Shown: positions 25,452-62,786 of the stretch, piece after piece
Layout: each line of letters begins with the position of its first letter
Position numbering within the stretch: the stretch's first letter is position 1
NCBI GenBank assembly: GCA_038257245.1
Contig: JBBSJL010000003.1
Coordinates: 2,074-66,073 of the forward strand
Direction: 5' to 3'
DNA from: Candidatus Saccharimonadales bacterium
GTDB taxonomy: Bacteria; Patescibacteriota; Saccharimonadia; Saccharimonadales; JACQNP01
Length of the DNA stretch: 64,000 nucleotides
The notes under the pieces: model-generated
What the model was told of the DNA's origin: nothing
The model's database searches: none
Seen by the model: the letters and a program-made list of their open reading frames with translations, nothing else
Program-made: the position numbers and the translations under genes

Positions 25452-25454
25452 CCG

Positions 25455-25760: not shown

Positions 25761-26335
25761 AAAACGCAATATTAATACCTGGCCGACCTGACAAGGACGA
25801 GCATTATGACAAAAATCGTCCCAGTAATAGCGAAGATCACTGGTTTAGTTGGCTCAAACGACAGCTTATTATTAGGGATATTCATGCAGTTTCAATAGAA
25901 CCGCCCTTTCCTTTCCGGCCTCGATATGATGATTGGAAAAAAGAGTTCGAAAGGTTTGACATTACACCCGAAACGATACTGGTTGGTCACAGTTGTGGTG
26001 GTGGCTTTCTTGCGCGCTACCTAAGTGAAGACAAGGATCTAAAAGTTGGTAAAGTAGTTCTCGTTGCTCCATGGATAAATCCTGATAATAATCCTATTTC
26101 TGATACTGCTGATTTTTTTGACTTTAAAATTGATCCAGATTTTCCAACTCGAACAAAGGGCGTGTCTGTCTTTATTTCATGCGATGACGAATTAAGCGTA
26201 TTGAAAACAGTTGAGATTTTGAAAGAAAAAGTTAGCAATGTTGTTTATCACGAATTTACTGATAAAAAGCATTTTTGTTTAGAAGAATTAGGTACGCAAG
26301 AATTCCCAGAGCTACTTGATGAGCTACTGAAATGA
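25757..26335 (+). CDS. YdeN/RBBP9-type serine hydrolase (alpha/beta fold)
   Basis: GHSCGG nucleophile elbow, ~190 aa, ATGA coupling. It is a paralogue of 53654-54205. Confidence 0.65.
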   Translation: MKNAILIPGRPDKDEHYDKNRPSNSEDHWFSWLKRQLIIRDIHAVSIEPPFPFRPRYDDWKKEFERFDITPETILVGHSCGGGFLARYLSEDKDLKVGKVVLVAPWINPDNNPISDTADFFDFKIDPDFPTRTKGVSVFISCDDELSVLKTVEILKEKVSNVVYHEFTDKKHFCLEELGTQEFPELLDELLK

Positions 26336-27066: not shown

Positions 27067-27713
27067 TGAGAGTTGCGATAACTGGAGCCGAAGGCAAAGT
27101 TGGGCAGGCGTTGATTGGTCAACTAGATTCCGGGATGTTTGATATCATGACACTTGATTTGCCCGAACACGATTCAAGCAACTTTGAAGATCTAGTTTCA
27201 GCTACAAAAGACCATGACGCAATAATTCATTTGGCGTGGAAGGATCTCAGAACAGACGCAGTCGATCCATTAAATGGAGTAATGTATGAAAACGTTTACC
27301 GGGCTGCTGTTGCTAACAACATTGGTCTGGTGATAATGGGTAGCTCAAATCACGCACGAGACCACACAGAACGCGAGGACGATGGAATGATAAGATATAC
27401 TGGTCAACCCGAAACAGCGAATAATATTTACGGTGTAGAAAAACAAAAGATGGAAGCCATGGGCAGATATTTTGCCAAGAATAATGGTTTAAACGTCATT
27501 GCTCTACGCATTGGCAACATTAACCCAGAAGACAAGCCAAAACCTGACACGCCAACTCGCTGGATGAGCCACAGAGATTTTGGCAGCATGGTTTCGCTCG
27601 CGCTAACTCACGAATTTGAACCTGGTCATTTTGAAGTTGTTTACGGCGTGAGCCAGCAGCCTGTCTTTGATTGGGAAAATTCGTTTGGCTATGAACCACA
27701 GGACATTGCATAG
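27066..27713 (+). CDS. Short NAD(P)-binding epimerase/dehydratase-like protein
   Basis: ITGAEGKVGQAL Rossmann motif and a YGVEKQ (YxxxK) catalytic motif. Confidence 0.65.
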   Translation: MRVAITGAEGKVGQALIGQLDSGMFDIMTLDLPEHDSSNFEDLVSATKDHDAIIHLAWKDLRTDAVDPLNGVMYENVYRAAVANNIGLVIMGSSNHARDHTEREDDGMIRYTGQPETANNIYGVEKQKMEAMGRYFAKNNGLNVIALRIGNINPEDKPKPDTPTRWMSHRDFGSMVSLALTHEFEPGHFEVVYGVSQQPVFDWENSFGYEPQDIA

Positions 27714-28309
27714 TGAGTAAAGAAAAAATATTTCTTTTTGATGCAGACGGCGTTCTAACCTTGCCTGAAGAAGTATTTTCGGTAATATATGCAAGATCTC
27801 GCGGACTTGATATTGAACCATTTGACGAGTTTTTCAAAAAAGAGTGGGACAATTTTGTTACAGGCAAGAGTGACCTCAAAGACCATATTCGTGAAAATCC
27901 AGATTTATGGCAATGGGACGGAATGCCAGAAGAGCTCCTGACTTATTGGTTCAAAAGCGAAGATATCCGCAACGATGAAATGATTGAATCGGTTAGCTCA
28001 ATACGTGCAAAAGGCACTCCGTGCTATCTTGCGACAGAACAAGAAAAATACCGTGGTAGCTATATGCGCGACATCATGTTTAAAGACCTATTCGATGGTT
28101 ATTTCATTACTGCCGACATTGGTCTAAAGAAGTCTAACCCTGCTTTCTTTGAACATATTGTAAAAGAGCTTAGCGCCAAACATAGTCTTGATTCACCAGC
28201 AGATATAGTTTTTATTGATGATAGTCAGGCCAAAGTCGATGCGGCAATATCAGCAGGGCTAAGAGCCCATCTTTTTACTGGAGTAGATCAGTTTAAGGAG
28301 CAAATATGA
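27713..28309 (+). CDS. HAD-superfamily hydrolase
   Basis: LFDADGVL nucleophile motif and C-terminal FIDDS. GTG start overlapping the previous stop by 1 nt. Confidence 0.7.
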   Translation: MSKEKIFLFDADGVLTLPEEVFSVIYARSRGLDIEPFDEFFKKEWDNFVTGKSDLKDHIRENPDLWQWDGMPEELLTYWFKSEDIRNDEMIESVSSIRAKGTPCYLATEQEKYRGSYMRDIMFKDLFDGYFITADIGLKKSNPAFFEHIVKELSAKHSLDSPADIVFIDDSQAKVDAAISAGLRAHLFTGVDQFKEQI

Positions 28310-28692
28310 AAGACAAAAAGCTGACTATTGTTATTAATAAGCCAATAAATGAAGTATTCAAGTTTACTATTAACCCAGACAATACACCTAAGTGGATAGA
28401 TGGTATAGCGGTCGAGGAAACTAACGAGACACCACCAAAACTGGGGACAATTTACAAGAACAAGGGAGAAAGTGGTAATTGGAACGAATACGAGATGACA
28501 TCTTTTGAACAAGATAAGACATTTGAACTAACTAGAATTAATGGAAGTTACCACGTCAGGTATACTTTTACGCCCATAGATGAAAATAGCTGTGAATTTG
28601 AGTACTATGAATGGGTAGACGATGGAGAATTAGACGATACTTTCTCTCAAAAGGTTTTAGAAAAATTAAAAAGGATAGTGGAACAGCAATGA
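28306..28692 (+). CDS. SRPBCC (START/Bet v1-like) ligand-binding protein
   Basis: 128 aa. N-terminal INKPINEVFKFTINPDNTPKW is typical of the fold family. Confidence 0.5.
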   Translation: MKDKKLTIVINKPINEVFKFTINPDNTPKWIDGIAVEETNETPPKLGTIYKNKGESGNWNEYEMTSFEQDKTFELTRINGSYHVRYTFTPIDENSCEFEYYEWVDDGELDDTFSQKVLEKLKRIVEQQ

Positions 28693-29660
28693 GCGAGAGG
28701 TTTATAGATAGATTAGACTTCACTGGTGACCTAGCCGAACCATTAAACGATGTTTGTCTGGCTTTTGGCCTAGGAAAGTATCTGGCTCAAGAACCTATAA
28801 CTATTGGATATGAAGACTTCAACACGCAGCTGGAAACGTCTGAAGGTAGTTACTTCGCCAAGATATTTACAAAAGACAGAACAGACGAGGAATGTGAAAG
28901 ATATGTTCGGGTGATGCAGGCCGTAGTTGATTCTGGCGTTAATCACCCTGGTTTAAAAATTGCAAAAAGCGGAGCAATTTATAGACCAAACGGCACTAAC
29001 CTGCGGGTTTCTGTAACTGAATGGCTAGAAAGTTCTCAGGACTTCCAAAGAGATAAGCCGAGTGATGAACAGCTAGCGGAACTCATCCGACAGACAGCCT
29101 TGATTAATCAACTAGACGTAGGCCTAACCGATGCAGACTTTATTTATGATAGTTGGGCAATTTCTAGTTTTGTTAATGAGTTTGAAAAGTGGCAACATGT
29201 GCTTGGCGATGACGACAAGAAACTAATAGACCCAGTTTTGGCTGAATACTGCGCAGTTGATGTCGATGGTCTACCAAAAGCATTTGTCCATGGTGATCTA
29301 ATAAGAACTAACGTTATGCAAACTGCCGTCGGATTATATGTTTATGATTTTGCAGTTGCCAATATTTATCCTAGAGTACAAGAATTAGCAGTACTGCTTT
29401 GTGATATGTTCTTTAGTCCAGAAAGTGAAGCAGAAACCTTTCGACTTTATGGTTTTTTACTTTCTGAGTATCAGGAATATGTTCCACTGACGGATAAAGA
29501 GATTGAAGCTTTGCCTGTGTTTGTTCGTGCTGCTCACGCAATGCATATTCTTGGTGGTGCGAGAGGAGAAAAGCAGGGTGATGGTGGTGAAGAAAATGAT
29601 CTCTGGTGGAATTTAGGCCGCGCTGGATTAAGAATGAATGCTTATTCGGAAAAACTATGA
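28689..29660 (+). CDS. APH-fold phosphotransferase (second copy in the operon)
   Basis: FVHGDLIRTNVM catalytic loop and a YVYDFA motif. The start was moved to the ATG at 28689 (ATGA overlap with the previous stop). Confidence 0.7.
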   Translation: MSERFIDRLDFTGDLAEPLNDVCLAFGLGKYLAQEPITIGYEDFNTQLETSEGSYFAKIFTKDRTDEECERYVRVMQAVVDSGVNHPGLKIAKSGAIYRPNGTNLRVSVTEWLESSQDFQRDKPSDEQLAELIRQTALINQLDVGLTDADFIYDSWAISSFVNEFEKWQHVLGDDDKKLIDPVLAEYCAVDVDGLPKAFVHGDLIRTNVMQTAVGLYVYDFAVANIYPRVQELAVLLCDMFFSPESEAETFRLYGFLLSEYQEYVPLTDKEIEALPVFVRAAHAMHILGGARGEKQGDGGEENDLWWNLGRAGLRMNAYSEKL

Positions 29661-30283
29661 AGCTGTACTTATCATCTTATAGAATTCCGACGCCAGAAGA
29701 TTTGTTTAAACTGGTTGGTAAAAATCCAGAAGATATCAAAGTTGCACATATTCCTAATGCCAAGGATTACTATGCTGAGAGGGCTCGTAACTTCAAGATA
29801 AATGTAGTAAGTAGCTTCATGCAGGAAGTTGGGCTTAAACCAGACGTGATTGATTTAAATATTTACAATCAAGAAAAACTGAAGTTAGAGTTACAAAAAT
29901 ACGATCTAATATGGGTTGCAGGTGGAAATACGTTTTGCTTGCGTGATGCGATGGAACGAAGTGGCTTTGACAGGCTTCTACCTGAGTTACTAGAAAGTGG
30001 CATAGTATACGGAGGAGACAGTGCGGGTGCTATTGTAGTTGGCCCTACGCTTAAAGGGACTGAGACGGCCGATGAACCTGAATTTAGTGAAAATATCATA
30101 TGGGAAGGTCTAGATATAATCCCAACCATAATTATCCCTCATGCTGATAACGAAAGCCTAAAGACTGCATTAATACCGATGCTGGAAATGTACAATGATA
30201 ATCCAGAAGCAATAGTTCTAAACGACAACCAGGCATATATTGTCGACGGCAGTAAAAAAATGGTAGTATCTTCTGGTGAGTAA
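29657..30283 (+). CDS. Peptidase S51 (dipeptidase E-like) / class I amidotransferase-like protein
   Basis: IWVAGGNTFCL...YGGDSAGA nucleophile region. The start was moved to the ATG at 29657 (ATGA overlap). Confidence 0.65.
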   Translation: MKLYLSSYRIPTPEDLFKLVGKNPEDIKVAHIPNAKDYYAERARNFKINVVSSFMQEVGLKPDVIDLNIYNQEKLKLELQKYDLIWVAGGNTFCLRDAMERSGFDRLLPELLESGIVYGGDSAGAIVVGPTLKGTETADEPEFSENIIWEGLDIIPTIIIPHADNESLKTALIPMLEMYNDNPEAIVLNDNQAYIVDGSKKMVVSSGE

Positions 30284-50650: not shown

Positions 50651-50726
50651 TGGTGGGGGTGGCAGGAATTGAACCTGCGACCAATCGGTTATGAGCCGAG
50701 TGCTCTAACCCCTGAGCTACACCCCC
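50651..50726 (-). tRNA. tRNA-Met (anticodon CAU), elongator type; tRNA-Ile2(CAU) not excluded
   Basis: Reverse complement GGGGGTG TA GCTC AGGGGTTA GAGC A CTCGG CTCATAA CCGAT TGGTC GCAGG TTCAATT CCTGC CACCCCC A CCA. It has a G1:C72 pair and Y11:R24. Confidence 0.85.
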
Positions 50727-51284: not shown

Positions 51285-52511
51285 ATGACAGAGACTAAAA
51301 AGAATTTGTCCAAACGATTTCGACCATTGTACTTTTCGGCGTTTTTCCATGGTTTTGTTCTTTGGTACGCCATTGAAAAAATATTTATGAAAACTATAGG
51401 ATTTAATGACGTCACCATCGGGGTAATGATTGCTTTCTACTCTGCGATAGTGTTGGTTGCAGAAACACCGTCTGGCATATTAGCAGATAGGTGGAGCAGG
51501 AAAGGTGTCCTCATTATTGCTAGTATCTTCTTGTCGCTGAGTGCTCTTATTGGTGGATTGAGCCAGGGCGTATTGTCTTATTTAGTTGCTGCAGGTTTTT
51601 GGGGAGTATTCTTCGCATTGTATTCAGGGACTTACGAAACAATAGTTTATGACACTGTGCGCGAAGAAACTAAGTCCGGAGATTTATACGAACATTACTA
51701 TGGTAAAGTAACAATTTTTGATAGTTCAGCATTAGTTATTGGTTCAATAATAGGTGGGCTAGTCGCAAACTTTGCAGGATTAAATATGGCATACTTTTTA
51801 TCTGTACCGATGGGTATCGGCTCTATTGCGGCTCTAATGCAATTCAAAGAGCCTCAGCTACATAAAAACCACGCTCCAGTATCATTGCGAGAACAGGTCA
51901 GCGATACATTCAGATCTGTATTGCAAAAAGGAGACCTACCTCCCGTGTTAGTAGTATTAGTTGCAACCTCTGCATTAACATTTTTAATCTTTGAATTTAG
52001 TCAATTATGGACTATTGCGCTACTTATACCACTAATATGGTTTGGGCCGGTTAATGCCCTTCACTTGTCTTCGATAGGAATTGGAGGGGCACTCGTCTCC
52101 AGATTCAGGCTTAATAGGCAAGCAGCACTGATGGGGCTTTTGGTGGTACTTGTGGTTAGTTGTTTGGCTCTGACATTGTCTCGGAATAAGTTAGTAGTTG
52201 TCTTTGCTATATTTTTTGCCAGTATTTGCTTGATAAGCATAAGCATAATATTTAGTAAGCTTTTACATGATAGATTAGATTCAAAAGTTAGAGCAGGTGC
52301 GGCGTCAGCAATTAGTACACTGGGGCGAATGATTATTATTCCAGTCTCGATAGTATTCGGGTACATAAGTAGTAAAACCAGAGAACAGATCATTACCCCT
52401 CAATATATTGTAGATGTAATATATCCCGTCGCGAAAGCTGGTTCCAACATTTTCGGCAAATTTGGAGTTTGGGCTAAAAATCCAAATTATCTTGCAGTTA
52501 TAGAAAATTGA
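51285..52511 (+). CDS. MFS transporter
   Basis: About 12 helices with a GILADRWSRKG loop 2-3 motif. TATAGT lies 7 nt before the ATG. Confidence 0.75.
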   Translation: MTETKKNLSKRFRPLYFSAFFHGFVLWYAIEKIFMKTIGFNDVTIGVMIAFYSAIVLVAETPSGILADRWSRKGVLIIASIFLSLSALIGGLSQGVLSYLVAAGFWGVFFALYSGTYETIVYDTVREETKSGDLYEHYYGKVTIFDSSALVIGSIIGGLVANFAGLNMAYFLSVPMGIGSIAALMQFKEPQLHKNHAPVSLREQVSDTFRSVLQKGDLPPVLVVLVATSALTFLIFEFSQLWTIALLIPLIWFGPVNALHLSSIGIGGALVSRFRLNRQAALMGLLVVLVVSCLALTLSRNKLVVVFAIFFASICLISISIIFSKLLHDRLDSKVRAGAASAISTLGRMIIIPVSIVFGYISSKTREQIITPQYIVDVIYPVAKAGSNIFGKFGVWAKNPNYLAVIEN

Positions 52512-52751: not shown

Positions 52752-52826
52752 CGCGGGGTAGAGCAGCGGCAGCTCGTCTGGCTCATAACCAGAAGGTCGC
52801 AGGTTCGAGTCCTGCCCCCGCTACCA
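52752..52826 (+). tRNA. Initiator tRNA-fMet (anticodon CAU)
   Basis: CGCGGGG TA GAGC AGCGGCA GCTC G TCTGG CTCATAA CCAGA AGGTC GCAGG TTCGAGT CCTGC CCCCGCT A CCA. It has a C1xU72 mismatch and A11:U24, and its acceptor and D-stem are nearly identical to E. coli tRNA-fMet. Confidence 0.9.
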
Positions 52827-52865
52827 AGCATAAGCATTATGACCTCTAGAAATAGAGGTCTTTTC
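52821..52865 (+). repeat. Junction repeat copy A (tail only; overlaps the last 6 nt of tRNA-fMet)
   Basis: CTACCAAGCATAAGCATTATGACCTCTAGAAATAGAGGTCTTTTC is identical to the tails of copies B and D. The hairpin spans 52841-52860, followed by a T-run. Confidence 0.9.
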
Positions 52866-52888
52866 ATTCGTTTTGTTATTATTAAGTT

Positions 52889-53491
52889 ATGAAGGTCAAC
52901 TATAGTCCAGAGCAAGTTGCTGCTCAGTTTCGTAATTGTGGCAGAAGGTGGTGGATTGCGGGAGGATGGGCAATAGACTACTACCTAGGGAAGGTCACTC
53001 GTGAACACGAGGATGTCGATGTAGCCATTTTAAAAAGTGACGAGAAGGCATTTCGTAGCTACATGCAAGACTGGGAAATATGGCCTGGATTAGGCGATAA
53101 CAAATTAGAAGATAAACCGATAAGGATCGATGAGGCACTTTCGGAAGAACGAGGTGTGCTATGGTGCCGTCCATCCCCTGCAGACGAATGGGCCTTTGAA
53201 CTGTTACTCAATCCAACCAAGGGTAGCGAGTGGGTGTTTAAGCGAGACGAGAGAATACGAAAACCGTTAGATAGACTCGGGTCTGTTACTGACGACGGTA
53301 TTCCATATCTAAATCCAGAAATTGTACTTTTATTTAAAGCCAAAAATAATCGGGAAAAAGATCAGCAAGATTTTGAAACTGTAATACCAATGCTTGGCGA
53401 AGACGCAAGAAGGTGGCTACGTCACTCAATACAGATTGTTCATCCTGATCACCCCTGGCTAACTGCGCTGTGTTCAACTCCTACTGCCTAG
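52889..53491 (+). CDS. ANT(2'')-like nucleotidyltransferase (aminoglycoside 2''-adenylyltransferase family fold)
   Basis: WWIAGGWAIDYYLGKVTREHEDVDVAI parallels the LWIGGGWAID..LGRVTRKHDDIDL motif of ANT(2'')-Ia as I recall it. The last ~7 codons run into repeat copy B. Confidence 0.65.
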   Translation: MKVNYSPEQVAAQFRNCGRRWWIAGGWAIDYYLGKVTREHEDVDVAILKSDEKAFRSYMQDWEIWPGLGDNKLEDKPIRIDEALSEERGVLWCRPSPADEWAFELLLNPTKGSEWVFKRDERIRKPLDRLGSVTDDGIPYLNPEIVLLFKAKNNREKDQQDFETVIPMLGEDARRWLRHSIQIVHPDHPWLTALCSTPTA

Positions 53492-53630
53492 ACCCTACAG
53501 GGGATTCCTCCCTAACCTCATTCACTATCTCCCACATACCTATCAGTTCTCGTTTAATAAGGTTCCATTTCGTCAAAGGCATGCCTACCAAGCATAAGCA
53601 TTATGACCTCTAGAAATAGAGGTCTTTTTT
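53471..53630 (+). repeat. Junction repeat copy B (full: head, body, tail)
   Basis: The last 111 nt differ from copy D at 1 position by manual alignment. The hairpin spans 53605-53624, followed by a T-run. Confidence 0.9.
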
Positions 53631-53653
53631 GTTGGCTTTGGTATGATGTCTTT

Positions 53654-54205
53654 ATGAAAAATGCAATTCTATTACATGGTTCTGGCGGAAGTAGCGTAGA
53701 CTACTTTTGGTTTGAAGATACTAAGAGGCACCTTGAATCATTAGGTTACGAAGTATGGTGGCCACTATTGCCGAATACTGATAGTCCAAAACTAATTGAG
53801 ACCCGTGACTATATAGAACAAAATATGCCCAGTATTGACGAACAAACAGTTATTATCGCTCATTCATCTGCATGCCCTTTAATTCTCCATATGATGCAAT
53901 ATTTTAAGGTTAGAGTACGGCAAGTCATTCTAGTATCAGGATATTACCAGTCTATATCTGGAGAATCGAATAACATGTTACCCGAAAGTTTCGATTGGGA
54001 CGAGATTAAGCAACATGCGGAAGAGATAATACTAATAAACTCCGATAATGACCCCTGGGGTTGTAATGACAAACAAGCACGACCTGCTGCGGAAAAACTA
54101 GGTGCGAAGTTTATATTCGCTAAAGAGCAGGGTCATATGGGCTCAGGGACATATAATCAACCTTATAGAAAGTTTGAGCTGCTTAATTCACTACTACCAA
54201 GTTAG
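53654..54205 (+). CDS. YdeN/RBBP9-type serine hydrolase
   Basis: MKNAILLHGSGGS start and an AHSSAC nucleophile region. TGGTATGAT lies 6 nt before the ATG at 53654. The track start at 53603 sits inside the repeat hairpin. Confidence 0.7.
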   Translation: MKNAILLHGSGGSSVDYFWFEDTKRHLESLGYEVWWPLLPNTDSPKLIETRDYIEQNMPSIDEQTVIIAHSSACPLILHMMQYFKVRVRQVILVSGYYQSISGESNNMLPESFDWDEIKQHAEEIILINSDNDPWGCNDKQARPAAEKLGAKFIFAKEQGHMGSGTYNQPYRKFELLNSLLPS

Positions 54206-54223
54206 TTTGTTATAATCCAAAAC

Positions 54224-55174
54224 ATGGATATCAAAGATACTAACGTTCATAATAGCGGCATGCTTGATGTGGGTGATGGACATAAGCTTTATTGGGAAGA
54301 TTGGGGCAATCCTAAATCAACACCAATTATGCACTTTCATGGTGGCCCAGGCGGCGGCTTTAGCGATAGTCATAAGTTAATGTTTAACGCTCAAAAACAC
54401 AGGGTAATTTTTTATGACCAAAGAGGTTCGGGTAAGAGCACGCCCTATGCGTCAACTAAAGATAATACAACGCAAAAACTAGTAGAAGATGCAGAGAAGC
54501 TACGTAAACACCTTAAGATAGATAAGATGCACCTTGTTGGTGGTTCTTGGGGCTCAACAATGACATTAGCGTATGCAATGGCTTACCCAGATAATGTTAA
54601 AGCCATGGTTATGTGGGGCATATATCTAACTAGGCAGTTTGAAAATGACTTAATTGCAGCTGGATATGCAAAATATAACTATCCTGAAGCATGGGAACGG
54701 TTTATATCGCTAGTACCTGAAGAGCATCGAAAAGACGGTGACTCTATAACAAGATACTATTCAGGCAAGATAAACTCTAAAAATACTAAAGAGGCAATTC
54801 AGTATGCTGATGAGTGGACACTATGGGAGTGCACATTACTGTCCGTAAACTATGATAAAGCTAAACTAGAACTCGATGTTATAAAAGGCGATGATAGTAA
54901 CCTAGCTATTGCAAGATTAGAAACACATTATTTTATTAACGATTGTTTTATGCCAGGAAACTATTTGTTAGATAACATAGGTAAAATAAAACACATTCCT
55001 AGTTATGTTGTTCAGGGTAGATTTGATAACTGCACACCTCCAATTACTGCGTATGAACTAAGTAAGTCATATGGCAAAAACATGACTTTGCAGTTTGTAA
55101 ATGGTGGCCATAGACGTAGTGACCCAGAAGTACTTGCTGCCTTAAGAGCAGCTGTAAACACGACCTTAGTCTAG
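54224..55174 (+). CDS. pip: Prolyl aminopeptidase (proline iminopeptidase, S33)
   Basis: HGGPGGG, YDQRGSGKS and GGSWGSTM motifs. TGTTATAAT lies 7 nt before the ATG. Confidence 0.85.
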   Translation: MDIKDTNVHNSGMLDVGDGHKLYWEDWGNPKSTPIMHFHGGPGGGFSDSHKLMFNAQKHRVIFYDQRGSGKSTPYASTKDNTTQKLVEDAEKLRKHLKIDKMHLVGGSWGSTMTLAYAMAYPDNVKAMVMWGIYLTRQFENDLIAAGYAKYNYPEAWERFISLVPEEHRKDGDSITRYYSGKINSKNTKEAIQYADEWTLWECTLLSVNYDKAKLELDVIKGDDSNLAIARLETHYFINDCFMPGNYLLDNIGKIKHIPSYVVQGRFDNCTPPITAYELSKSYGKNMTLQFVNGGHRRSDPEVLAALRAAVNTTLV

Positions 55175-55180
55175 TGCTTT

Positions 55181-55205
55181 AAGCTCTAGAAATGGAGGTC
55201 TTTTT
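55181..55205 (+). repeat. Junction repeat copy C (hairpin-only variant)
   Basis: AAGCTCTAGAAATGGAGGTCTTTTT, followed by the same TTTGTTATGATTAAGTTATGAA leader as after copy A. Confidence 0.75.
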
Positions 55206-55229
55206 ATTTGTGTTTGTTATGATTAAGTT

Positions 55230-55955
55230 ATGAAATCGAATAGTCATCCGGTTACACAGCAGTATCAGCCTACAAATACAACCTGTAGTCCAACAGCACT
55301 TTCGACACTACTTGGGCACTACGGGAATAAGATAAGTCCACTGGACGTTGAAGCGAAGGTTCCACAGTCTATAAATGATAAGGGTGAAAAGATAGGCACT
55401 ATAAATCAACAATTAGCTACATGGTGTTTAACTAGAGGATACAACGTGACACTCTATACTTTCGATTGTCAGATAATAGATCAATCATGGGGTAAGCTCG
55501 AGACAAATAAACTGATTGAACGTATGAAATTGCGAAAGAATGGGTGGGTCGTTCCGGGCATGGGCGAAGAGTGGACAAAACGATACACACAAGCTTATAT
55601 TGATTTTATTATTGCTGGCGGTAAATTACATATACAGCCTGCAGTAACAACCGTACTACTTTACGATCTATTGAAGACAGGCCCTTTCTTGCCATGTGTG
55701 AGCTACAGCACTTTATATGGTGAAGCTCGTTCGAGGAATATTGGGGAAATTGAAGTTGTTACTGATGATGTAAATGGTAGAGCAACTAACCACTCGATTG
55801 TCGTATATGGCAATGATGAGTCGGGTAATTTCGTGATTGCGGACTCTTGGAAGAAACCAGGCCTTCACACTATTGAGCCCGAGAGATTACTTGCGGCAAT
55901 AAGCACGGCACAGATTGAGTGTGATAACCTGCTATTCCAAATACAACCTAAGTAG
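55230..55955 (+). CDS. Peptidase C39-like (papain-fold) cysteine peptidase domain protein
   Basis: QQYQPTNTTCSPTALSTLLGHYG fits the Q...N.C.P.A....L..YG motif, and NHSIVVYG is a candidate His. TGTTATGAT lies 6 nt before the ATG. Confidence 0.55.
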   Translation: MKSNSHPVTQQYQPTNTTCSPTALSTLLGHYGNKISPLDVEAKVPQSINDKGEKIGTINQQLATWCLTRGYNVTLYTFDCQIIDQSWGKLETNKLIERMKLRKNGWVVPGMGEEWTKRYTQAYIDFIIAGGKLHIQPAVTTVLLYDLLKTGPFLPCVSYSTLYGEARSRNIGEIEVVTDDVNGRATNHSIVVYGNDESGNFVIADSWKKPGLHTIEPERLLAAISTAQIECDNLLFQIQPK

Positions 55956-55962: not shown

Positions 55963-56120
55963 GGTTCAAGTCCTACTGCTTAGACTGAAACAGGGCTTCC
56001 TTCCTAATATCATTCACTATCTCCCACATACCTATCAGTTCTCTTTTAATAAGGTTCCATTTCGTCAAAGGCATGCCTACCAAGCATAAGCATTATGACC
56101 TCTAGAAATAGAGGTCTTTT
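55963..56120 (+). repeat. Junction repeat copy D (full)
   Basis: Head GGTTCAAGTCCTACTGCTTAGAC, a body, and a tail identical to copy A. The hairpin spans 56097-56116. Confidence 0.9.
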
Positions 56121-56230
56121 CATTTTATAACTATTTGCCAGGGAGCTGCTACCTAGTTAACCGTTATCCTTTTAACAACATTGAGAGTATAATTGAAGGT
56201 ACACAAAGTGGAATAATCTAGGAGCTAAAT

Positions 56231-56638
56231 ATGACAGATATTAAACAAACCGTAACAGAGACCGAAGATAGTGGTAATAATGAAGTCGGAGCAGCTGTCC
56301 GGCAGAAAACTAAACAAATCCATACTGAATCAGCGGCAGACAGTAAAACAACTGCACAAAACATCGTTTGGTACATACTGGGTGTTTTGGAAGTCGTTTT
56401 GGCAATTAGATTTGTTCTCAAACTCCTAGGAGCAAACTCTGCGAACGCATTTGTTGATTTAACTTATTCTATTAGTGGAATTATTACTGCGCCCTTTGAT
56501 AGCATATTCGGCGTAACAAGCACCACTACAGGTGATACTAATTCTGTGTTTGAACCTTCAATAATTGTTGCCGGGTTAGTCTATATGTTGATAGCGTGGG
56601 GAGTCGTCAAGCTGATCACTATTAACCAAAAGCAGTAA
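56231..56638 (+). CDS. YggT-like two-helix membrane protein
   Basis: TAGGAG SD. The IRFVLKLLGAN....ITAPFDSIFG pattern resembles the YggT repeat. Confidence 0.45.
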   Translation: MTDIKQTVTETEDSGNNEVGAAVRQKTKQIHTESAADSKTTAQNIVWYILGVLEVVLAIRFVLKLLGANSANAFVDLTYSISGIITAPFDSIFGVTSTTTGDTNSVFEPSIIVAGLVYMLIAWGVVKLITINQKQ

Positions 56639-56660
56639 CTATAATAAGGTAAGGCGTCGA

Positions 56661-56888
56661 ATGAAATATTACAAAAAACGCATTGAAGATGTACTAAAAA
56701 GACCACGAAGTCTTATTTCAAAAGTTAACTTCCGTCGCTATCTTACAAACGTTAACGAGCCGGCAGAAAATATATCAGAATTACGGCTACCAGAATCAAA
56801 AATTCGAAAACACGACAAGATAGATTCTGCACGGCAAAGGGTTGGGATTCGTAAACTTGCTAAAAAACTAAGACTTAGAAGTAAGTAG
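56661..56888 (+). CDS. Small highly basic protein, unknown function
   Basis: 75 aa, K/R-rich, with a weak SD (TAAGG). Confidence 0.4.
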   Translation: MKYYKKRIEDVLKRPRSLISKVNFRRYLTNVNEPAENISELRLPESKIRKHDKIDSARQRVGIRKLAKKLRLRSK

Positions 56889-56941
56889 ATTAAAGCTAGA
56901 TGTTGATTATTATTTCATATATAGCTACCCGCATTAAATAG

Positions 56942-58651
56942 ATGAATTTTGTTAAAACAGCATTGTTGAATATACGACTAGTTCTGGTCCTACTTGGAGT
57001 AGTATTTTTAGGTTCTATAGCTTACAGCCAACTAAAAGGAAGCCAAGATTTTGCTGATATTATAAATGGGCATGACTGGACCCACTTTGCTGGAGCAACA
57101 CAAACCCAAAGTGGTATCCAAATATCTCCACTGAATAAAGAAATCATTCACCAAGACGGATCAAAAGCACAGCTAAATCCACCCTTAAACGTCCGTGGTC
57201 CTCATTTGGCAGTCTCTGGAAACTTTGAAGTTAAGGCTAACATGGATGGCATAGAAGACGGGGCTTCGTTACAATTTTACAGCCAACCGCCAGTTATATA
57301 TGACGAATGGCGACAAGAGCACCCAAGCATTAGAATTGATATATCTGCCAACAGCGTAGAAGCGCGTATATGGGACGGTAACTCATCAACACCAATGGAC
57401 ATTCGTAGTTTTAATGTGAACTTAAATGGGCCAACGAAGCTAGATCTTAAGCACGAAGACGGACAGATAGCTCTGGCAGTAAACAGCCACGAGCTTGGGT
57501 CTATGCCAGATCATAATATATTTGCTGGTGGGACGGTTTGGTTTGGGTTAGACGGAAACGATAAAGGGGATGGCTGGATACTACGTGACCTTAGGGCACA
57601 TCCTCTTGGTAAAGATAGCTTGGATGTTATAGCCGTAACTTCTCTAACTGTTGACCACAATGACGCAAACTTACTACGTAATCTAATTGATAAACAGTCT
57701 CGCAAAATACAAATTGGCGTGGCAGTGTCGGTAAACCCTCTATACACCGATGAAGCATACAAGAATATTGCCATGAGCCAGTTTAATTTAGTAACCACAG
57801 AGAGTAGTTTAAAGGCCCAATTTATTCATCCAGCACCTGATAAATATAACTTTACCGAAGCGGATAATATTATTGCTATGGCGGAGGCTAACGGCCAGGC
57901 AGTTCACGGGCATACTTTGATCTTTGCTAAGTCTAATCCATCGTGGATGACAGATACACCCGAAGACAAGTTGGCTGGCGTCATGACAGACCATACAACT
58001 AATGTTGTCAAACATTTTAAAGGTCGTATTGGTTCGTGGGATGTTGTTAATGAACCTATGTCCGAAAAGGACGAAGATTATACAAACGGGAATCTAGGCT
58101 TACGACAGCATTTTTGGTTCAAAGCTATGGGCGAACAATACATCGACAAAGCATTTAAAGCGGCACGAGCGGCTGACCCAACTGCAAAACTATATTTGAA
58201 TGATTACGGTATCGAGCATGATGGCATGCGATGGCAAGCATTCTACACACTCGTGCAACGTCTTCAAGCTCGTGGTGCCCCAATTGACGGTGTTGGGTTT
58301 GAATCTCATGTCTACCAGACCACGGACAAAATTGATCTGACAATATTAAGAGCGCATATAAAAGCAATTGCCGATTTGGGGCTAAGTGTCCGAATATCGG
58401 AAATAGATGTTTTGGGAGATGAACCACAATTTCAGAGCCAGCAGTACAGCGATGTATTGGCTGTTTGTTTAAGTGAACCTAGCTGCTCATCATATACCAC
58501 CTGGGGTGTATCGGACTTATATGGTTCTACAACTATTTCTGAACGATATCCACTATTGCTAGGTGATAGTTTACTGTGGGACAAGGATATGCAACCCAAA
58601 TCAGCTTTTTTTGAACTTCAGAAAGTGCTTAAGAACAACCAGGTGCAGTAA
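56942..58651 (+). CDS. Membrane-anchored glycoside hydrolase family 10 (endo-beta-1,4-xylanase-like) with an N-terminal beta-sandwich-like domain
   Basis: Signal-anchor helix, a ~200-aa unassigned domain, then a GH10 domain with GHTLIF, WDVVNEP (acid/base Glu) and ISEIDV (nucleophile Glu). Confidence 0.8.
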   Translation: MNFVKTALLNIRLVLVLLGVVFLGSIAYSQLKGSQDFADIINGHDWTHFAGATQTQSGIQISPLNKEIIHQDGSKAQLNPPLNVRGPHLAVSGNFEVKANMDGIEDGASLQFYSQPPVIYDEWRQEHPSIRIDISANSVEARIWDGNSSTPMDIRSFNVNLNGPTKLDLKHEDGQIALAVNSHELGSMPDHNIFAGGTVWFGLDGNDKGDGWILRDLRAHPLGKDSLDVIAVTSLTVDHNDANLLRNLIDKQSRKIQIGVAVSVNPLYTDEAYKNIAMSQFNLVTTESSLKAQFIHPAPDKYNFTEADNIIAMAEANGQAVHGHTLIFAKSNPSWMTDTPEDKLAGVMTDHTTNVVKHFKGRIGSWDVVNEPMSEKDEDYTNGNLGLRQHFWFKAMGEQYIDKAFKAARAADPTAKLYLNDYGIEHDGMRWQAFYTLVQRLQARGAPIDGVGFESHVYQTTDKIDLTILRAHIKAIADLGLSVRISEIDVLGDEPQFQSQQYSDVLAVCLSEPSCSSYTTWGVSDLYGSTTISERYPLLLGDSLLWDKDMQPKSAFFELQKVLKNNQVQ

Positions 58652-58660: not shown

Positions 58661-58818
58661 GGTTCAACTACTACCGCCTAGGCTGCAACAGGGCTTCTCT
58701 CCTAACTTCATTCACTATCTCCCACATACCTATCAGTTCTCGTTTAATCTGGTTCCAATTCGTCAAAGGCATGCCTACCAAGCATAAGCACTAAGACCTC
58801 TGTAAAAAGAGGTCTTTT
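58661..58818 (+). repeat. Junction repeat copy E (full, diverged)
   Basis: About 8 mismatches to copy B over the last 111 nt. Hairpin variant GACCTCT gtaaaa AGAGGTC followed by TTTT. Confidence 0.85.
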
Positions 58819-58850
58819 ATATTTTGTTAGTAAAGACTACAAAATAAGTG

Positions 58851-58885: not shown

Positions 58886-59028
58886 CGGAAGACCGAGTGA
58901 AACAGCACAAGTTCGTTAATATGTATCCGTTCAAGTTAGTAAAGTTCGAAGTTTGTTAGTTCGTAGGATACATCTGTGGGTGCTAGTCTTCCCCAGTACA
59001 AAGAGGCACAGAACGTGCCTCTTTTCAT
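58886..59028 (+). ncRNA. Candidate ~140-nt small RNA or cis-regulatory leader
   Basis: Bounded by the promoter above and the terminator AAGAGGCAC agaac GTGCCTCTT TTCATTT (59001-59030). An internal 7-bp stem TGTATCC/GGATACA (58922-58972) encloses AGTT(C/A/T)G repeats. No plausible ORF. Confidence 0.3.
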
Positions 59029-59185
59029 TTGGTTCTATTGCTCACAGGTGCTGCATCAAACACTAGTTTTCATCTGTTCGAATCTTCAAACAAAACGTTC
59101 CAATTCGACAAACCTAGATACTTATAAATACAGTCTACTTAATAGTTGGAGTAATTTGTCCTCATTTTTGGTATATTTGATTGAT

Positions 59186-59752
59186 ATGCAACATTTAGTT
59201 ATAGATTGTACAAAACCGAAGGATAAAGATTTCAATTCCCGACTATACAGGTACCTAGATATTATTGCTGACTACGACGTAGTTAATATTGAAGAGATAG
59301 GCGAGAGCACATTAGGTAAATATAAGACAATAATAATTACAGGTGTTCCAGTAACCTACCCGCTAGATTCCATATATGAAACAGCCAAAAGGTTAGAATG
59401 TATTAAAAGTGTGAATATCCCTGTGCTAGGAATATGTCTTGGTCATCAGGTAATAGGAGTACTATTTGGCTCTAAAATTTATGAGCACGGTGAAGCTGAG
59501 CATGGGGATAGAAAGGTCACCATAGTTAACGATGACAAAATATTCAAAGACATGTCGCATGAGTTTCATGCCCAAACACTTCATACGGCATCAGTAAGTT
59601 TGCCCCATTCGTTCAAACACTTAGCTAAATCCTATAGTTGTCATAATGAATCGATGAAACATAAAGAAAAGGATATTTATGGCTTTCAATTTCACCCAGA
59701 GTTTAAGGAATCATCCAGAGCAGTAATAAGAAACTTCATACTATTGAATTAG
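59186..59752 (+). CDS. Class I glutamine amidotransferase domain protein
   Basis: PVLGICLGHQ (Cys nucleophile) and FQFHPE (His/Glu). TGGTATATT lies 8 nt before the ATG at 59186. The track start at 58976 (GTG) reads through the terminator. Confidence 0.7.
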   Translation: MQHLVIDCTKPKDKDFNSRLYRYLDIIADYDVVNIEEIGESTLGKYKTIIITGVPVTYPLDSIYETAKRLECIKSVNIPVLGICLGHQVIGVLFGSKIYEHGEAEHGDRKVTIVNDDKIFKDMSHEFHAQTLHTASVSLPHSFKHLAKSYSCHNESMKHKEKDIYGFQFHPEFKESSRAVIRNFILLN

Positions 59753-59820
59753 AAACAGCTTTCCACCTTTCCACCTTCCCAACTCCTAAAGCAGTAAGAT
59801 CCAATTAGAATGTACTTGGG

Positions 59821-59885
59821 CTACCAAGCATATTCACTATGGATTATAATAAGGAAGGTGTTTTAGCCTAGCTTTGTTATGATTA
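59821..59885 (+). repeat. Junction repeat copy F (scrambled/degenerate)
   Basis: CTACCAAGCATA (tail start) is fused to TTCACTAT (a body fragment), and TTTGTTATGATTA (the leader) is at 59873-59885. CAACTCCTA, a head-like fragment, lies at 59780-59788. Confidence 0.55.
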
Positions 59886-59893: not shown

Positions 59894-60316
59894 ATGAAAA
59901 CCACAAAAAGAAACCAAAATCTGTGTAGTAAGTCAGGTTTTACAATTGTAGAAGTGATGATTGTCCTCGCTGTGGCAGGTCTAATTGTATTAATTCTTTT
60001 CTTTGCCATTCCTGCTTTACAGCGGATGACACGAAATACACGTCGTGATAATGATGTTCAATTAATAGTCGCAGCGATTAATGAATGCGTACTGAATAAT
60101 AACGGCCAAATTGACGGCTGTCAGGCTTTCGGCAATATCCCTATAGATGCGTCTAATTTAAGTATTTTCTCTGGTGCTCATTATGGTGTTGATGCGTCGG
60201 GTAATTCTGTCGCACCAACAGAAGAAGAGCCAAACTGGCTTTTTAATTTAAGGTGTAATAGTGATGGAACTTGGTTTTTGTCTGATAACCCACAAAGAGC
60301 TTTCGTCGTTACTTAA
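59894..60316 (+). CDS. Type IV pilin-like protein (prepilin N-terminal cleavage/methylation motif)
   Basis: KSG|FTIVEVMIVLAVAGLIVLILF has the G-F-T-x-x-E motif and a hydrophobic helix. Cys residues are present in the C-terminal domain. Confidence 0.7.
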   Translation: MKTTKRNQNLCSKSGFTIVEVMIVLAVAGLIVLILFFAIPALQRMTRNTRRDNDVQLIVAAINECVLNNNGQIDGCQAFGNIPIDASNLSIFSGAHYGVDASGNSVAPTEEEPNWLFNLRCNSDGTWFLSDNPQRAFVVT

Positions 60317-60420
60317 GAAAGAGAAGTTGGGTCATCAATACGAAACAAATGTATAGATGGATAATTGATACGATAGTTATGGTTTAGTACAAAATAGCAA
60401 ACTAAAACATTACGATTCAT

Positions 60421-60484
60421 GGTTAAATTCCTACTACCTAAACCCCAACAGGCTTTCTTCTTAGTATCATTCACTATCTCCCAC
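60421..60484 (+). repeat. Junction repeat copy G (head plus first part of the body only)
   Basis: GGTTAAATTCCTACTACCTAAACCCCAACAGGCTTTCTTCTTAGTATCATTCACTATCTCCCAC. Homology stops at 60484, and no tail or hairpin follows. Confidence 0.75.
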
Positions 60485-62752: not shown

Positions 62753-62786
62753 GCTTATATTACCTCTAGAAATGGAGGTCTTTTTT
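62753..62786 (+). repeat. Junction repeat copy H (tail/hairpin variant)
   Basis: GCTTATATTACCTCTAGAAATGGAGGTCTTTTTT carries the same TGGAGGTC variant arm as copy C. Confidence 0.75.

What the first reader, a model, noticed from the sequence alone, without database searches (positions are those of the whole stretch)
52821..52865. The repeat tail is a duplicate of the last 6 nt of tRNA-fMet plus the tRNA's own terminator
The 45-nt string CTACCAAGCATAAGCATTATGACCTCTAGAAATAGAGGTCTTTTC starts at tRNA position 71 (CTACCA is the end of the mature tRNA) and runs through the tRNA's intrinsic terminator. The same string recurs at 53586-53628 and 56078-56120; copy B diverges only at the last base (T for C). 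It recurs with about 5 changes at 58776-58818. In those copies it is preceded by AAAGGCATGC rather than tRNA sequence. Identity therefore begins exactly at the tRNA 3' terminus. That is the signature expected of an attB/attP identity block regenerated at every insertion. It is unusual because the shared segment extends downstream of the tRNA rather than into its T-arm.
Basis: seen in the sequence. Interest (0 to 1): 0.75.

Follow-up and report, generated by a model that had tools for sequence, protein, structure and literature searches.

The report
Serine-integrase insertion scars at initiator tRNA
The repeated 45-base "tail" marks places where small mobile DNA elements, moved by a large serine recombinase, have inserted at the very end of the initiator tRNA gene of a Saccharibacteria genome, leaving a stack of gene cassettes that no longer carry the enzyme.

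Summary
CTACCA plus a hairpin terminator occurs at 52821-52865 directly on tRNA-fMet, and again at 53585, 56077 and 58775. A decayed copy lies at 59821.

It is an attachment-site scar, not just a popular terminator. In every downstream copy, the DNA left of CTACCA is the orphaned 3' end of a large serine recombinase (LSR) gene, read antisense.

Related Saccharibacteria genomes carry full LSR genes abutting tRNA-fMet at the same nucleotide. Their last 15 codons are antisense tRNA.

Twelve database LSRs instead end in the peptide encoded by the repeat. Two of them sit on assembled 8.4-kb and 9.8-kb circles. So attP lies inside the LSR gene, and integration swaps the enzyme's C-terminus.

Across genomes the shared core is only CWACCA(AG). 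The 39-nt terminator is a site arm, not the crossover block.

The GGTTC motif lies 19 nt from the core in the tRNA and 24 nt from it in the element arm. That is the 5-bp attB/attP register shift known for serine integrases.

The window holds four junctions plus relics, five cargo blocks and no recombinase. How this enzyme-less array grew remains inferred: serial insertion or homologous recombination.

Verdict: a new variant of a known kind.

The parts
52752..52826 (+). Initiator-type tRNA-Met(CAT) with encoded CCA. It is the bacterial half (B arm) of the attachment site.
   Evidence: ARAGORN and Rfam. The C1:U72 mismatch is read directly from the sequence.
52821..52865 (+). Tail A: core CTACCA(AG) plus right arm, with hairpin terminator at 52841-52860.
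52889..53491 (+). Cargo block 1: aminoglycoside-2''-nucleotidyltransferase-like gene.
   Evidence: Pfam PF10706, 1.3e-11.
53472..53629 (+). Junction B: the 157-nt repeat. It comprises the orphan LSR 3' end (left arm of attP), core 53585-53590 and tail.
   Evidence: Repeat family D1. It aligns with the 3' end of the L082 LSR gene.
53484..53600 (-). Antisense reading frame of junction B: LVGMPLTKWNLIKRELIGMWEIVNEVREESPVGSRQ*, an LSR C-terminal tail remnant.
   Evidence: HMM of 12 attP-form LSR tails, E = 1.1e-8. Translation.
53654..55955 (+). Cargo block 2: Ser_hydrolase (53654-54205), alpha/beta hydrolase (54224-55174) and C39-like peptidase (55230-55955).
   Evidence: Pfam.
55181..55204 (+). 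Terminator-only copy without CTACCA or left arm. It is followed by a leader 82% identical to the leader after tail A.
   Evidence: repeat families D6 and D7.
55964..56121 (+). Junction C: 157-nt repeat with core 56077-56082. Its tail is identical to tail A. Antisense LSR tail at 55976-56092.
   Evidence: HMM E = 6.2e-8.
56231..58651 (+). Cargo block 3: YGGT-like gene (56231-56638), a 75-aa ORF (56661-56888) and a GH10 xylanase-like gene (56942-58651).
   Evidence: Pfam. YGGT and the 75-aa ORF are also linked near tRNA-fMet in L046.
58662..58819 (+). Junction D: 157-nt repeat, 86% identical to B, with core 58775-58780. Antisense LSR tail at 58674-58790.
   Evidence: HMM E = 7.2e-9.
58976..59752 (+). 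Cargo block 4: class-I glutamine amidotransferase gene.
   Evidence: Pfam PF00117, 4.7e-27.
59789..59865 (+). Junction E: decayed junction of a different lineage. Its left arm CCAATTAGAATGTACTTGGG differs by 1 nt from attP of the 8.4-kb circle L084. Core at 59821-59826, with a diverged tail.
   Evidence: HMM E = 2.5e-5 on minus strand 59833-59789. Comparison with L084.
59894..60316 (+). Cargo block 5: pilin-like gene with an N-terminal methylation motif.
   Evidence: Pfam PF07963.
60420..60484 (+). Relic F: only the distal half of the 157-nt repeat, with no core and no tail.
   Evidence: Repeat family D5 at 91%; sequence.
62761..62784 (+). Terminator-only copy ahead of a PsbP-like gene. It is homologous to the tail-plus-gene arrangement in L015.
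   Evidence: Sequences compared by eye.

Best explanation
The tail is the core, CTACCA(AG), plus the right arm of an attachment site. The site is used by a family of large-serine-recombinase (LSR) integrative elements that target the CCA end of the initiator tRNA gene in Saccharibacteria.

Shown:
- The autonomous elements are small circles of 8.4 and 9.8 kb. Their attP lies about 100 nt inside the 3' end of their own LSR gene.
- After integration the LSR gene reads through the junction into the tRNA on the opposite strand. It ends with 15 codons of antisense tRNA.
- Its original last ~34 codons are left as an orphan at the far junction.
- Each 157-nt repeat in the window is such an orphan LSR 3' end, fused to CTACCA and a hairpin terminator.
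- The window carries four of these junctions plus truncated relics. They separate five blocks of unrelated accessory genes. No recombinase gene is present.

Inferred:
- Crossover occurs at or near the CC of CCA, so the tRNA body is never altered. Only the last bases and the trailer are exchanged.
- The arm brought in carries a terminator, so the tRNA and each preceding cassette stay properly terminated.
- The array grew by repeated insertion at the tRNA end, newest cassette nearest the tRNA. Each event pushed the previous trailer downstream. The enzyme was supplied in trans or later lost.
For: 1. Related loci carry the same junction. In the 19 related loci where a pattern search finds both the tRNA-fMet 3' end and the arm motif, GGTTCCAATTCG-N12-CWACCA occurs 26 times. 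It always lies downstream of and co-oriented with the tRNA, and its W always equals the resident tRNA's nt 72.

2. Full LSR genes sit at the site. L022 and L021 have 539-aa and 528-aa proteins with Resolvase, Recombinase and (L022 only) Zn_ribbon domains directly abutting tRNA-fMet. Their ORFs run 44 nt into the tRNA antisense.

3. The arm is coding sequence. Its antisense encodes a conserved peptide, LVxxVxSNWNxIxxELxRWK.

4. Both protein forms exist. Of 120 LSR homologues, 109 end in the tRNA-antisense peptide, either complete (LVAGxG(L/F)EPxTxWL or a close variant, 101) or cut short after ...EPxT (8). Twelve end in the arm-encoded peptide instead. One of these, P0101, ends ...LVGAAESHWNQIKRQLVIMWQIVNEIRKEAPVGV, matching the window's variant.

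5. The HMM is specific. A model of those 12 tails hits the six-frame window only at junctions D, B, C and E (7e-9 to 2.5e-5). The next best hit has E = 0.18.

6. DNA alignment agrees. The 3' end of the L082 LSR gene aligns with the whole repeat, through CCTACCAA and into a hairpin plus T-run.

7. Circles exist. L084, L085 and L086 come from three samples and are exact rotations of one 8432-bp circle with 0 mismatches. L083 also closes on itself.

8. Site geometry fits. GGTTC starts 19 nt before the core in 44 tRNAs and 24 nt before it in 36 of 37 arms. This is the 5-bp attB/attP register shift described for serine integrases (PMC3783163).

9. Mirror motifs are present. In L022 and L084, TTCGA/TCGAA and TTCCA/TGGAA lie symmetrically about the CC of CCA (read).

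10. The shared core is short. Identity between the tRNA flank and the junctions is only CWACCA(AG) in L002, L006, L021 and L022.

11. The site is often occupied. About 21 of roughly 50 tRNA-fMet loci carry at least one orphan. L090 carries at least eight.
Against: - The window contains no LSR or other recombinase, so activity in this genome is not shown.
- Canonical serine integrases recombine only attP with attB (PMC3783163). Repeated insertion next to an already occupied tRNA would need a relaxed right half-site, or an incoming arm that mimics the native trailer. Neither is demonstrated.
- Half-site symmetry could not be found convincingly in the window's own tail or in the L082 attP.
- Tails A, B and C are nearly identical and the repeats are 86-92% alike. 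Recent local copying or homologous recombination would also produce this.
- In L046, the YGGT gene, the 75-aa ORF and the PsbP-like gene are contiguous. Part of the window's 'cargo' may therefore be ancestral flank rearranged, not inserted.
Confidence: 0.75

Rival explanations
1. One site-specific insertion, or a few, created a junction. The array then grew and was reshuffled by RecA-type homologous recombination, or by uptake of foreign DNA recombining through the 157-nt-plus-tail homology. The serine recombinase played no further part.
For: - Tails A and C are identical over 48 nt, B differs at one base, and repeats B, C and D are 86-92% identical.
- The window has no recombinase.
- Canonical LSR site selectivity forbids attP x attL.
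- Truncated relics at 60420-60484 in the window and inside the L084 circle show non-site-specific rearrangement of these sequences.
Against: - Cargo is unrelated in every block.
- Junction E has a left arm of a different lineage, 1 nt from the L084 attP.
- Arrays in L090, L021, L006 and L099 have heterogeneous tails at successive junctions. Homogenising recombination does not predict this.
Confidence: 0.18
2. The tail is simply a favoured terminator, spread downstream of unrelated genes by gene conversion or duplication. Its overlap with the last 6 nt of the tRNA is incidental.
For: Two copies of the hairpin, at 55181 and 62761, lack CTACCA and the left arm. The terminator and its downstream leader are duplicated together (families D6 and D7).
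Against: - In four window copies, and in 26 junctions found by the arm motif in 19 loci (the window among them), the tail is attached to CWACCA. It is preceded by a conserved 24-nt arm at fixed spacing that encodes an LSR C-terminus.
- In relatives the tail sequence differs between junctions while CWACCA and the arm stay.
- No copy occurs in the other 52 kb of the window.
Confidence: 0.04
3. A classical tRNA-gene island made by a tyrosine integrase, with displaced tRNA 3' fragments marking island ends.
For: The tRNA is intact and co-oriented pseudo-3' ends lie downstream. The left arm contains a T-loop-like GGTTCCAATTCG.
Against: - No tyrosine recombinase was found in the window or in the occupied relatives examined.
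- Only 6 nt of the tRNA are repeated.
- The T-loop-like motif is LSR coding sequence (S-N-W-N) and sits 5 nt out of register with the tRNA.
Confidence: 0.02

Closest known systems
Serine-integrase (large serine recombinase) integrative elements, such as mycobacterial AICEs that insert into tRNA-Leu, and phage phiRSM (a small serine recombinase) at the 3' end of tRNA-Ser
   Same: - Resolvase, Recombinase and Zn-ribbon enzyme.
- Short att sites with little identity.
- A 5-bp attB/attP register shift.
- A circular excised form.
- A small FtsK/SpoIIIE-like ATPase on one circle, as in actinomycete elements.
   Different: - The host phylum is Saccharibacteria.
- The target is the CCA end of the initiator tRNA.
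- attP lies inside the recombinase gene.
- Enzyme-less cassettes are stacked in arrays.
- Serine recombinases at tRNA genes are called rare or unknown in the literature read.
SSV-type 'suicidal' tyrosine integrases of archaeal viruses and plasmids
   Same: attP lies within the integrase ORF. Integration into a tRNA gene separates the gene into two parts at the two ends of the element.
   Different: - Those are tyrosine recombinases. The review read states they occur only in archaea.
- They are split into inactive halves.
- Here the enzyme is a bacterial serine recombinase.
- Only the last ~34 residues are exchanged, for 15 tRNA-antisense-encoded residues. All catalytic and DNA-binding domains stay intact.
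Integration-dependent immunity of mycobacteriophage BPs
   Same: attP lies inside a coding gene, so the integrated and free forms make proteins with different C-termini.
   Different: There the gene is the repressor, and the longer form carries a degradation tag. Here the gene is the recombinase itself. Any functional consequence of the C-terminal swap is untested.
CIMEs and accretion of non-autonomous elements beside ICEs; tandem tRNA-gene islands
   Same: Units bounded by att sites lack recombination genes and sit in tandem at a site used by related autonomous elements.
   Different: - Known cases rest on tyrosine integrases with long identical cores.
- Here the units are single to few genes of 0.7-2.7 kb.
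- The left att arm is a fossil of the recombinase gene.
Integron cassette arrays
   Same: Co-oriented small gene cassettes, each ending in a recombination-site-like repeat, stacked at one fixed entry point.
   Different: - No IntI tyrosine recombinase, attI or Pc promoter.
- The repeat is not an attC hairpin.
- Cassettes appear to carry their own -10-like sequences.

Membership tests
Large-serine-recombinase integrative element (att junctions) | A cognate LSR (Resolvase N-terminal, Recombinase and Zn-ribbon domains) encoded next to the att site | tested here: inconclusive
   Met in relatives L022 and L021 and on circles L082-L086. Not met in the window itself: no LSR by tblastn, by LSR HMM or by Pfam.
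Large-serine-recombinase integrative element (att junctions) | The ZD-binding motif lies 5 bp closer to the centre in attB than in attP | tested here: met
   GGTTC starts 19 nt before the core in 44 tRNAs and 24 nt before it in 36 of 37 element arms. Reference: PMC3783163. Right half-sites show the mirror motif only in the L022/L084 lineage (read).
Large-serine-recombinase integrative element (att junctions) | A short common core, with attL and attR as hybrids of attP and attB arms | tested here: met
   attP of the L084 circle is arm + CTACCAAG + AGAAAGACTTTTCAGG.... In L022, the tRNA carries that right arm and the distal junction carries that left arm.
Large-serine-recombinase integrative element (att junctions) | An excised circular form carrying an intact attP | tested here: met
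   An 8432-bp circle was recovered as three exact rotations from three samples. A 9815-bp circle was also found. No circle was found for the window's own lineage; L082 is a linear 3.6-kb contig.
Large-serine-recombinase integrative element (att junctions) | Recombination activity of the enzyme on these sites | not testable with these tools
   Needs an in vitro or in vivo assay.
Tyrosine-integrase tRNA-gene island (Islander type) | A tyrosine integrase on the island | tested here: not met
   No Phage_integrase hit in the window ORFs scanned or in the L004, L021 and L022 islands.
Tyrosine-integrase tRNA-gene island (Islander type) | A displaced tRNA fragment reaching the T-stem or anticodon region | tested here: not met
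   Only CTACCA (6 nt) of the tRNA is repeated.
Integron | An IntI tyrosine recombinase with adjacent attI and Pc | tested here: not met
   Upstream of the tRNA lie Dus, tRNA-Met, DivIC and MFS genes, with no integrase.
Integron | attC sites: imperfect inverted repeats that fold as single-stranded hairpins | not tested
   The 157-nt unit was not folded as a whole. Only its terminal terminator hairpin was folded. The unit is explained instead as LSR coding remnant.
SSV-type self-splitting integrase | attP inside the integrase ORF | tested here: met
   CTACCA lies about 100 nt upstream of the LSR stop codon on circles and on L082.
SSV-type self-splitting integrase | A tyrosine recombinase split into non-functional halves | tested here: not met
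   The enzyme is a serine recombinase. Integrated forms keep 521-540 aa with all Pfam domains.
CIME-like non-autonomous element | Flanked by att sites, with no recombination or transfer genes, and a related autonomous element uses the same site | tested here: met
   The window's cargo blocks are bounded by junctions and lack such genes. The related autonomous LSR is P0101 on L082.
CIME-like non-autonomous element | Mobilisation in trans by the autonomous element | not testable with these tools
   Needs experiments or strain-level population data.

The most novel reading that the evidence does not exclude
Saccharibacteria carry a gene-cassette acquisition platform run by a serine integrase. Enzyme-less cassettes have an attP made of a fossil recombinase 3' end plus a self-supplied terminator. 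They are inserted one after another at the CCA end of the initiator tRNA by an LSR acting in trans. This is possible because the incoming right arm recreates a usable target. That behaviour lies outside the canonical 'attP x attB only' rule for serine integrases and is functionally analogous to an integron. In addition, the swap of the LSR C-terminus on integration acts as a built-in switch of recombinase activity or direction.
Probability: 0.3. Interest if true: 0.8.

Novelty: new variant of a known kind. Interest (0 to 1): 0.66.

Why it matters
- It identifies a widespread insertion hot spot. About 40% of the tRNA-fMet loci sampled are occupied. It also identifies the enzyme family behind that hot spot, in a phylum of ultra-small symbionts whose mobile elements are barely described.
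- The cargo includes defence genes: CBASS-like SMODS, an OLD-like nuclease and a restriction-modification system. It also includes hydrolases and an aminoglycoside nucleotidyltransferase-like gene.
- The system combines features rarely or never reported together. These are a serine integrase aimed at a tRNA gene, attP embedded in the recombinase's own 3' end so that the free and integrated enzymes differ, and a terminator encoded antisense within conserved recombinase codons.
- The enzyme-less arrays pose a concrete, testable question about serine-integrase site selectivity.
- Dozens of natural attP, attB, attL and attR sets are now available for a compact integrase family that may be useful for genome engineering.

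Tried and rejected
- **Exact-protein look-ups.** The first cargo protein and the MFS protein are not on record. The abhydrolase gave only a 1.9-kb contig with the same gene order. No strain-level empty site could be obtained.
- **First metagenome scan.** A scan with the repeat core CATTCACTATCTCCCACATACC found nothing.
- **Rfam.** It finds only the two tRNAs in the window. The 157-nt unit is not a known RNA family.
- **tRNA-like RNA element.** I first read GGTTCAAGTCC and GGTTCCATTTCG in the repeat as degenerate T-arms of a tRNA-like RNA element or a displaced tRNA fragment. I rejected this once the antisense strand proved to encode a conserved LSR C-terminus.
- **Native or element-borne tail.** I tried to decide by half-site symmetry whether the window's tail is a native (B') or element (P') arm. 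Symmetry is clear for the L022/L084 lineage. It is not clear for the window tail or for the L082 attP, so the question is left open.
- **Internal second att site on circles.** The extra hit in L084 is only a truncated distal relic.
- **Recombinase in the window.** Searches for a tyrosine integrase or transposase in the window were negative.
- **Literature.** Searches for this system in Saccharibacteria or Patescibacteria found no description.

Full report
**1. The observation**

The window encodes tRNA-Met(CAT) at 52752-52826 on the + strand, with the CCA encoded. Its acceptor ends form a C1:U72 mismatch, read directly from the sequence. From my own knowledge, this is the mark of a bacterial initiator tRNA.

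- The 45-mer that starts at C71 (52821-52865) recurs at 53585-53629 with one mismatch, at the last base.
- It recurs at 56077-56121 with no mismatch. No match is expected by chance.
- It recurs at 58775-58819 with six mismatches.
- A fifth, decayed copy at 59821-59865 shares the first 12 nt.
- The hairpin GACCTCTAGAAATAGAGGTC plus T-run is terminator-like.
- Two hairpin-only copies, at 55181 and 62761, lack CTACCA.

All of these lie between 52.8 and 62.8 kb. None lies in the other 52 kb.

**2. What lies to the left of CTACCA**

Copies B, C and D are the ends of a 157-nt repeat that is 86-92% identical between copies. Read on the minus strand, in the frame set by (N)TG GTA G, each repeat is an open frame. 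It encodes LVGMPLTKWNLIKRELIGMWEIVN... and runs to a stop at the repeat's left edge.

The organism is a Saccharibacterium. The best match to its Dus protein, among one genome per species, is 72% identical.

In related loci a motif GGTTCCAATTCG-N12-CWACCA lies 0.3-6.6 kb downstream of tRNA-fMet and is always co-oriented with it. Its antisense encodes a conserved peptide, LVxxVxSNWNxIxxELxRWK.

**3. The enzyme**

In L022 and L021, a 539-aa and a 528-aa protein directly abut tRNA-fMet on the opposite strand. They carry Resolvase and Recombinase domains, and L022 also has a Zn_ribbon_recom domain. Both ORFs run 44 nt into the tRNA. They end ...LVAG(G/A)GLEP(P/A)T(L/S)WL*, and the stop codon lies over the anticodon.

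I joined the L022 enzyme to the peptide encoded at its distal junction and searched the protein database with the composite. This returned 120 homologues of 401-557 aa, all but three between 521 and 557 aa. By my count from the C-termini printed:

- 109 end with the tRNA-antisense peptide. In 101 it is complete, as LVAGxG(L/F)EPxTxWL or a close variant. In 8 it stops short after ...EPxT.
- 12 end with the arm-encoded peptide.
- One of these 12, P0101, ends ...LVGAAESHWNQIKRQLVIMWQIVNEIRKEAPVGV. This matches the variant encoded by the window's repeat.

A profile of the 12 tails hits the six-frame translation of the window at exactly four places:

| Minus-strand position | Junction | E-value |
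|---|---|---|
| 58790-58674 | D | 7e-9 |
| 53600-53484 | B | 1e-8 |
| 56092-55976 | C | 6e-8 |
| 59833-59789 | E | 2.5e-5 |

The next best hit has E = 0.18. At the DNA level, the 3' end of the P0101 gene on L082 aligns with the whole repeat, through CCTACCAA and into a hairpin plus T-run.

**4. Free and integrated forms**

P0088 is a tail-bearing LSR found on 8462-nt contigs from three samples. Each contig has a 30-nt terminal overlap. All three are exact rotations of one 8432-bp circle, with no mismatch. The P0085 contig closes in the same way, to 9815 bp.

On the 8.4-kb circle, in tRNA orientation, the site reads:

GGTTCCAATTCGAATGTACTTGGG-CTACCA-AGAAAGACTTTTCAGGATCTGGAAGGTCTTTTTTAG

- Its right arm is the trailer now attached to tRNA-fMet in L022 and L062.
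- Its left-arm type is the one at the distal junction in L002 and L022.
- With one mismatch, that left arm is also at the window's junction E.

So attP lies about 100 nt inside the LSR gene. Integration exchanges the last ~34 residues for 15 residues encoded by antisense tRNA. The circle also carries an FtsK/SpoIIIE-like ATPase and no capsid genes.

**5. Site geometry**

GGTTC starts 19 nt before CWACCA in 44 tRNA-fMet genes. It starts 24 nt before CWACCA in 36 of 37 element arms. A recognition motif displaced by 5 bp between attB and attP is what was proposed for serine integrases from the LI integrase-attP half-site structure (PMC3783163).

In the L022/L084 lineage, two mirror pairs place the centre at the CC of CCA:

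- TTCGA at -21..-17 mirrors TCGAA at +17..+21 (tRNA plus distal trailer).
- TTCCA at -26..-22 mirrors TGGAA at +22..+26 (circle).

This is my reading. It is an inference, not an assay. If it is right, the tRNA body is never altered, and only the final CA and the trailer are exchanged.

**6. The true core and the tail**

Across genomes, the tRNA flank and the downstream junctions often share only CWACCA or CWACCAAG. This holds in L002, L006, L021 and L022. The 39-nt identity downstream of CTACCA in this window is therefore an arm shared by the copies, not a crossover block.

The second metagenome scan targeted the tRNA end plus AGCATA. It returned 13 loci. All 13 share the first ~10 nt of the tail, AGCATAAGCA or a one-base variant. 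Most continue into a GACCTC-type hairpin. Some continue into a different hairpin built on GCACT. Most of these loci have LSR-tail orphans downstream. One contig, L090, carries at least eight.

A census of junctions gave the following:

| Left side | Tail type | Count |
|---|---|---|
| tRNA arm | I (the window's type) | 18 |
| element arm | I | 10 |
| element arm | II (ACAGATAGAGATTGG...) | 9 |
| tRNA arm | II | 2 |

In six to eight single-cassette loci the order is tRNA-core-type I ... arm-core-type II. This is the pattern expected if type I is brought in by the element. Type I also has the same layout as the LSR's own right arm. There, conserved codons KKD(L/S)xExxKSF are the antisense of a hairpin plus T-run.

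Three loci, however, have a type-I tail and no orphan within 3-18 kb. L090 has a type-II tail at an internal junction. Whether the tail is native or element-borne therefore remains open.

**7. The window's array**

After the tRNA and tail A, the layout is:

- ANT(2'')-like gene, then junction B.
- Two hydrolases, a hairpin-only copy and a C39-like peptidase, then junction C.
- YGGT-like gene, a 75-aa ORF and a GH10 gene, then junction D.
- Glutamine amidotransferase, then junction E, which belongs to a different arm lineage.
- Pilin-like gene, then truncated relic F.
- Further small genes and a hairpin-only copy ahead of a PsbP-like gene.

All genes are on the + strand, so each junction's hairpin also terminates the block before it.

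There is no LSR in the window. A full-length LSR profile hits only the tRNA antisense, at E = 0.008. No integrase or transposase domain appears in the ORFs scanned.

**8. How the array arose (inferred)**

The simplest account is repeated insertion at the tRNA end. Each event displaces the previous trailer to the new distal junction. Supporting this:

- Cargo blocks are unrelated to one another.
- At least two arm lineages are present.
- Arrays elsewhere have heterogeneous tails.

Two facts are unexplained by simple serial insertion:

- The right boundary of the repeat is the same in A-D (the T-run), and the LSR body is absent everywhere. This suggests the units spread as enzyme-less cassettes, not through four independent deletions.
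- Canonical serine integrases do not recombine attP with attL.

This leaves three routes: the right half-site is relaxed, the incoming arm recreates a target, or the array was built by homologous recombination through the ~200-nt homology. The last is the main rival (confidence 0.18).

Synteny adds a caution. In L046, the YGGT gene, the 75-aa ORF and the PsbP-like gene are contiguous. Some of the window's 'cargo' may therefore be old flank.

**9. Comparison with known systems**

- The enzyme and site geometry place the autonomous relatives among serine-integrase integrative elements.
- Serine recombinases at tRNA genes are described as unknown in the Islander paper. Ghinet et al. 2011 call them rare, citing mycobacterial AICEs at tRNA-Leu and phiRSM at tRNA-Ser.
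- Recombinases whose attP lies in their own gene are said to occur only in archaea, as SSV-type tyrosine integrases. Here a bacterial serine recombinase has that layout but loses only its C-terminal tail.
- Mycobacteriophage BPs has attP inside its repressor gene, with a C-terminal change on integration.
- The enzyme-less units resemble CIMEs. By layout only, they also resemble integron cassettes.
- No paper describing this system in Saccharibacteria or Patescibacteria was found in the library.

**10. Verdict**

The att-site reading is right in substance but needs revision in mechanism. The element in the window is a recombinase-less array of LSR attachment scars: a new variant of a known kind, of moderate to high interest.

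Noticed in passing
L007, L009, L016, L031, L043, L046 (2961-3145), L047, L070, L074, L077, L088, L091, L092, L094, L095, L097 (3127-3338), L098: In 17 related loci, tRNA-fMet and its terminator are followed by a 140-276-nt segment of 51-61% GC. The segment ends in a second copy of the last 16-20 nt of the tRNA (..GTCCTGCCCCCGCWACCA). It contains a GGTTCGG motif and a hairpin, CAG-stem-loop-stem-GAGCA, whose stem changes in a compensatory way between genomes (GGAGC/GCTCC, GGTGC/GCACC, GAAGC/GCTTC, AAAGC/GCTTT). No Rfam family matches it. In several loci the type-I tail follows this second copy, not the tRNA itself.
   Followed up: partly
L090 1-12774: A 12.8-kb metagenome contig with no tRNA gene on it carries at least eight orphan LSR tails and seven arm-CWACCA junctions with varied tails. 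It is a much longer array than the window's.
   Followed up: partly
LSR proteins P0001-P0120; DNA in L022 14172-14215 and L084 6745-6785: The conserved LSR motif KKD(L/S)xExxKSF, just before the core, is encoded antisense to a hairpin plus T-run. The recombinase's own codons therefore supply a terminator for the tRNA after integration.
   Followed up: partly
L004 14537-16664; L022 16035-17690; L083 3137-4982: Cargo of related elements includes defence genes. These are SMODS plus AGS_C (CBASS-like) with DUF6602, an OLD-like ATPase/TOPRIM nuclease, and a DNA methylase with an NgoPII-type restriction enzyme.
   Followed up: no
L022 19938-20058 (-): A LOOT RNA (RF03000, 60.7 bits, above its gathering score) lies inside the island between the LSR and the distal junction.
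   Followed up: no
window 52861-52893, 53626-53658, 55202-55234; also 54205-54223: The sequence right after several terminators is itself repeated, at up to 82% identity. It places a -10-like TGTTATTAT, TGTTATGAT or TGTTATAAT only 6-10 nt before the ATG. This suggests leaderless or near-leaderless cassette transcripts.
   Followed up: no
window 24336-30283: A second run of co-oriented accessory-type genes: two APH-family kinases, a Ser_hydrolase next to an alpha/beta hydrolase (the same pairing as at 53654-55174), an epimerase, a HAD hydrolase and a peptidase S51. It has none of the repeats.
   Followed up: no
L084 8290-8352: The 8.4-kb circular element carries a second, truncated copy of the distal part of its own LSR tail, about 1.4 kb beyond the gene. 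It is comparable to relic F in the window (60420-60484).
   Followed up: partly
window 50651-50726 (-) and 52752-52826 (+): Two different tRNA-Met(CAT) genes flank the DivIC and MFS genes in opposite orientation. In most relatives DivIC lies directly upstream of tRNA-fMet, so the MFS gene at 51285-52511 is an extra gene in this genome.
   Followed up: partly
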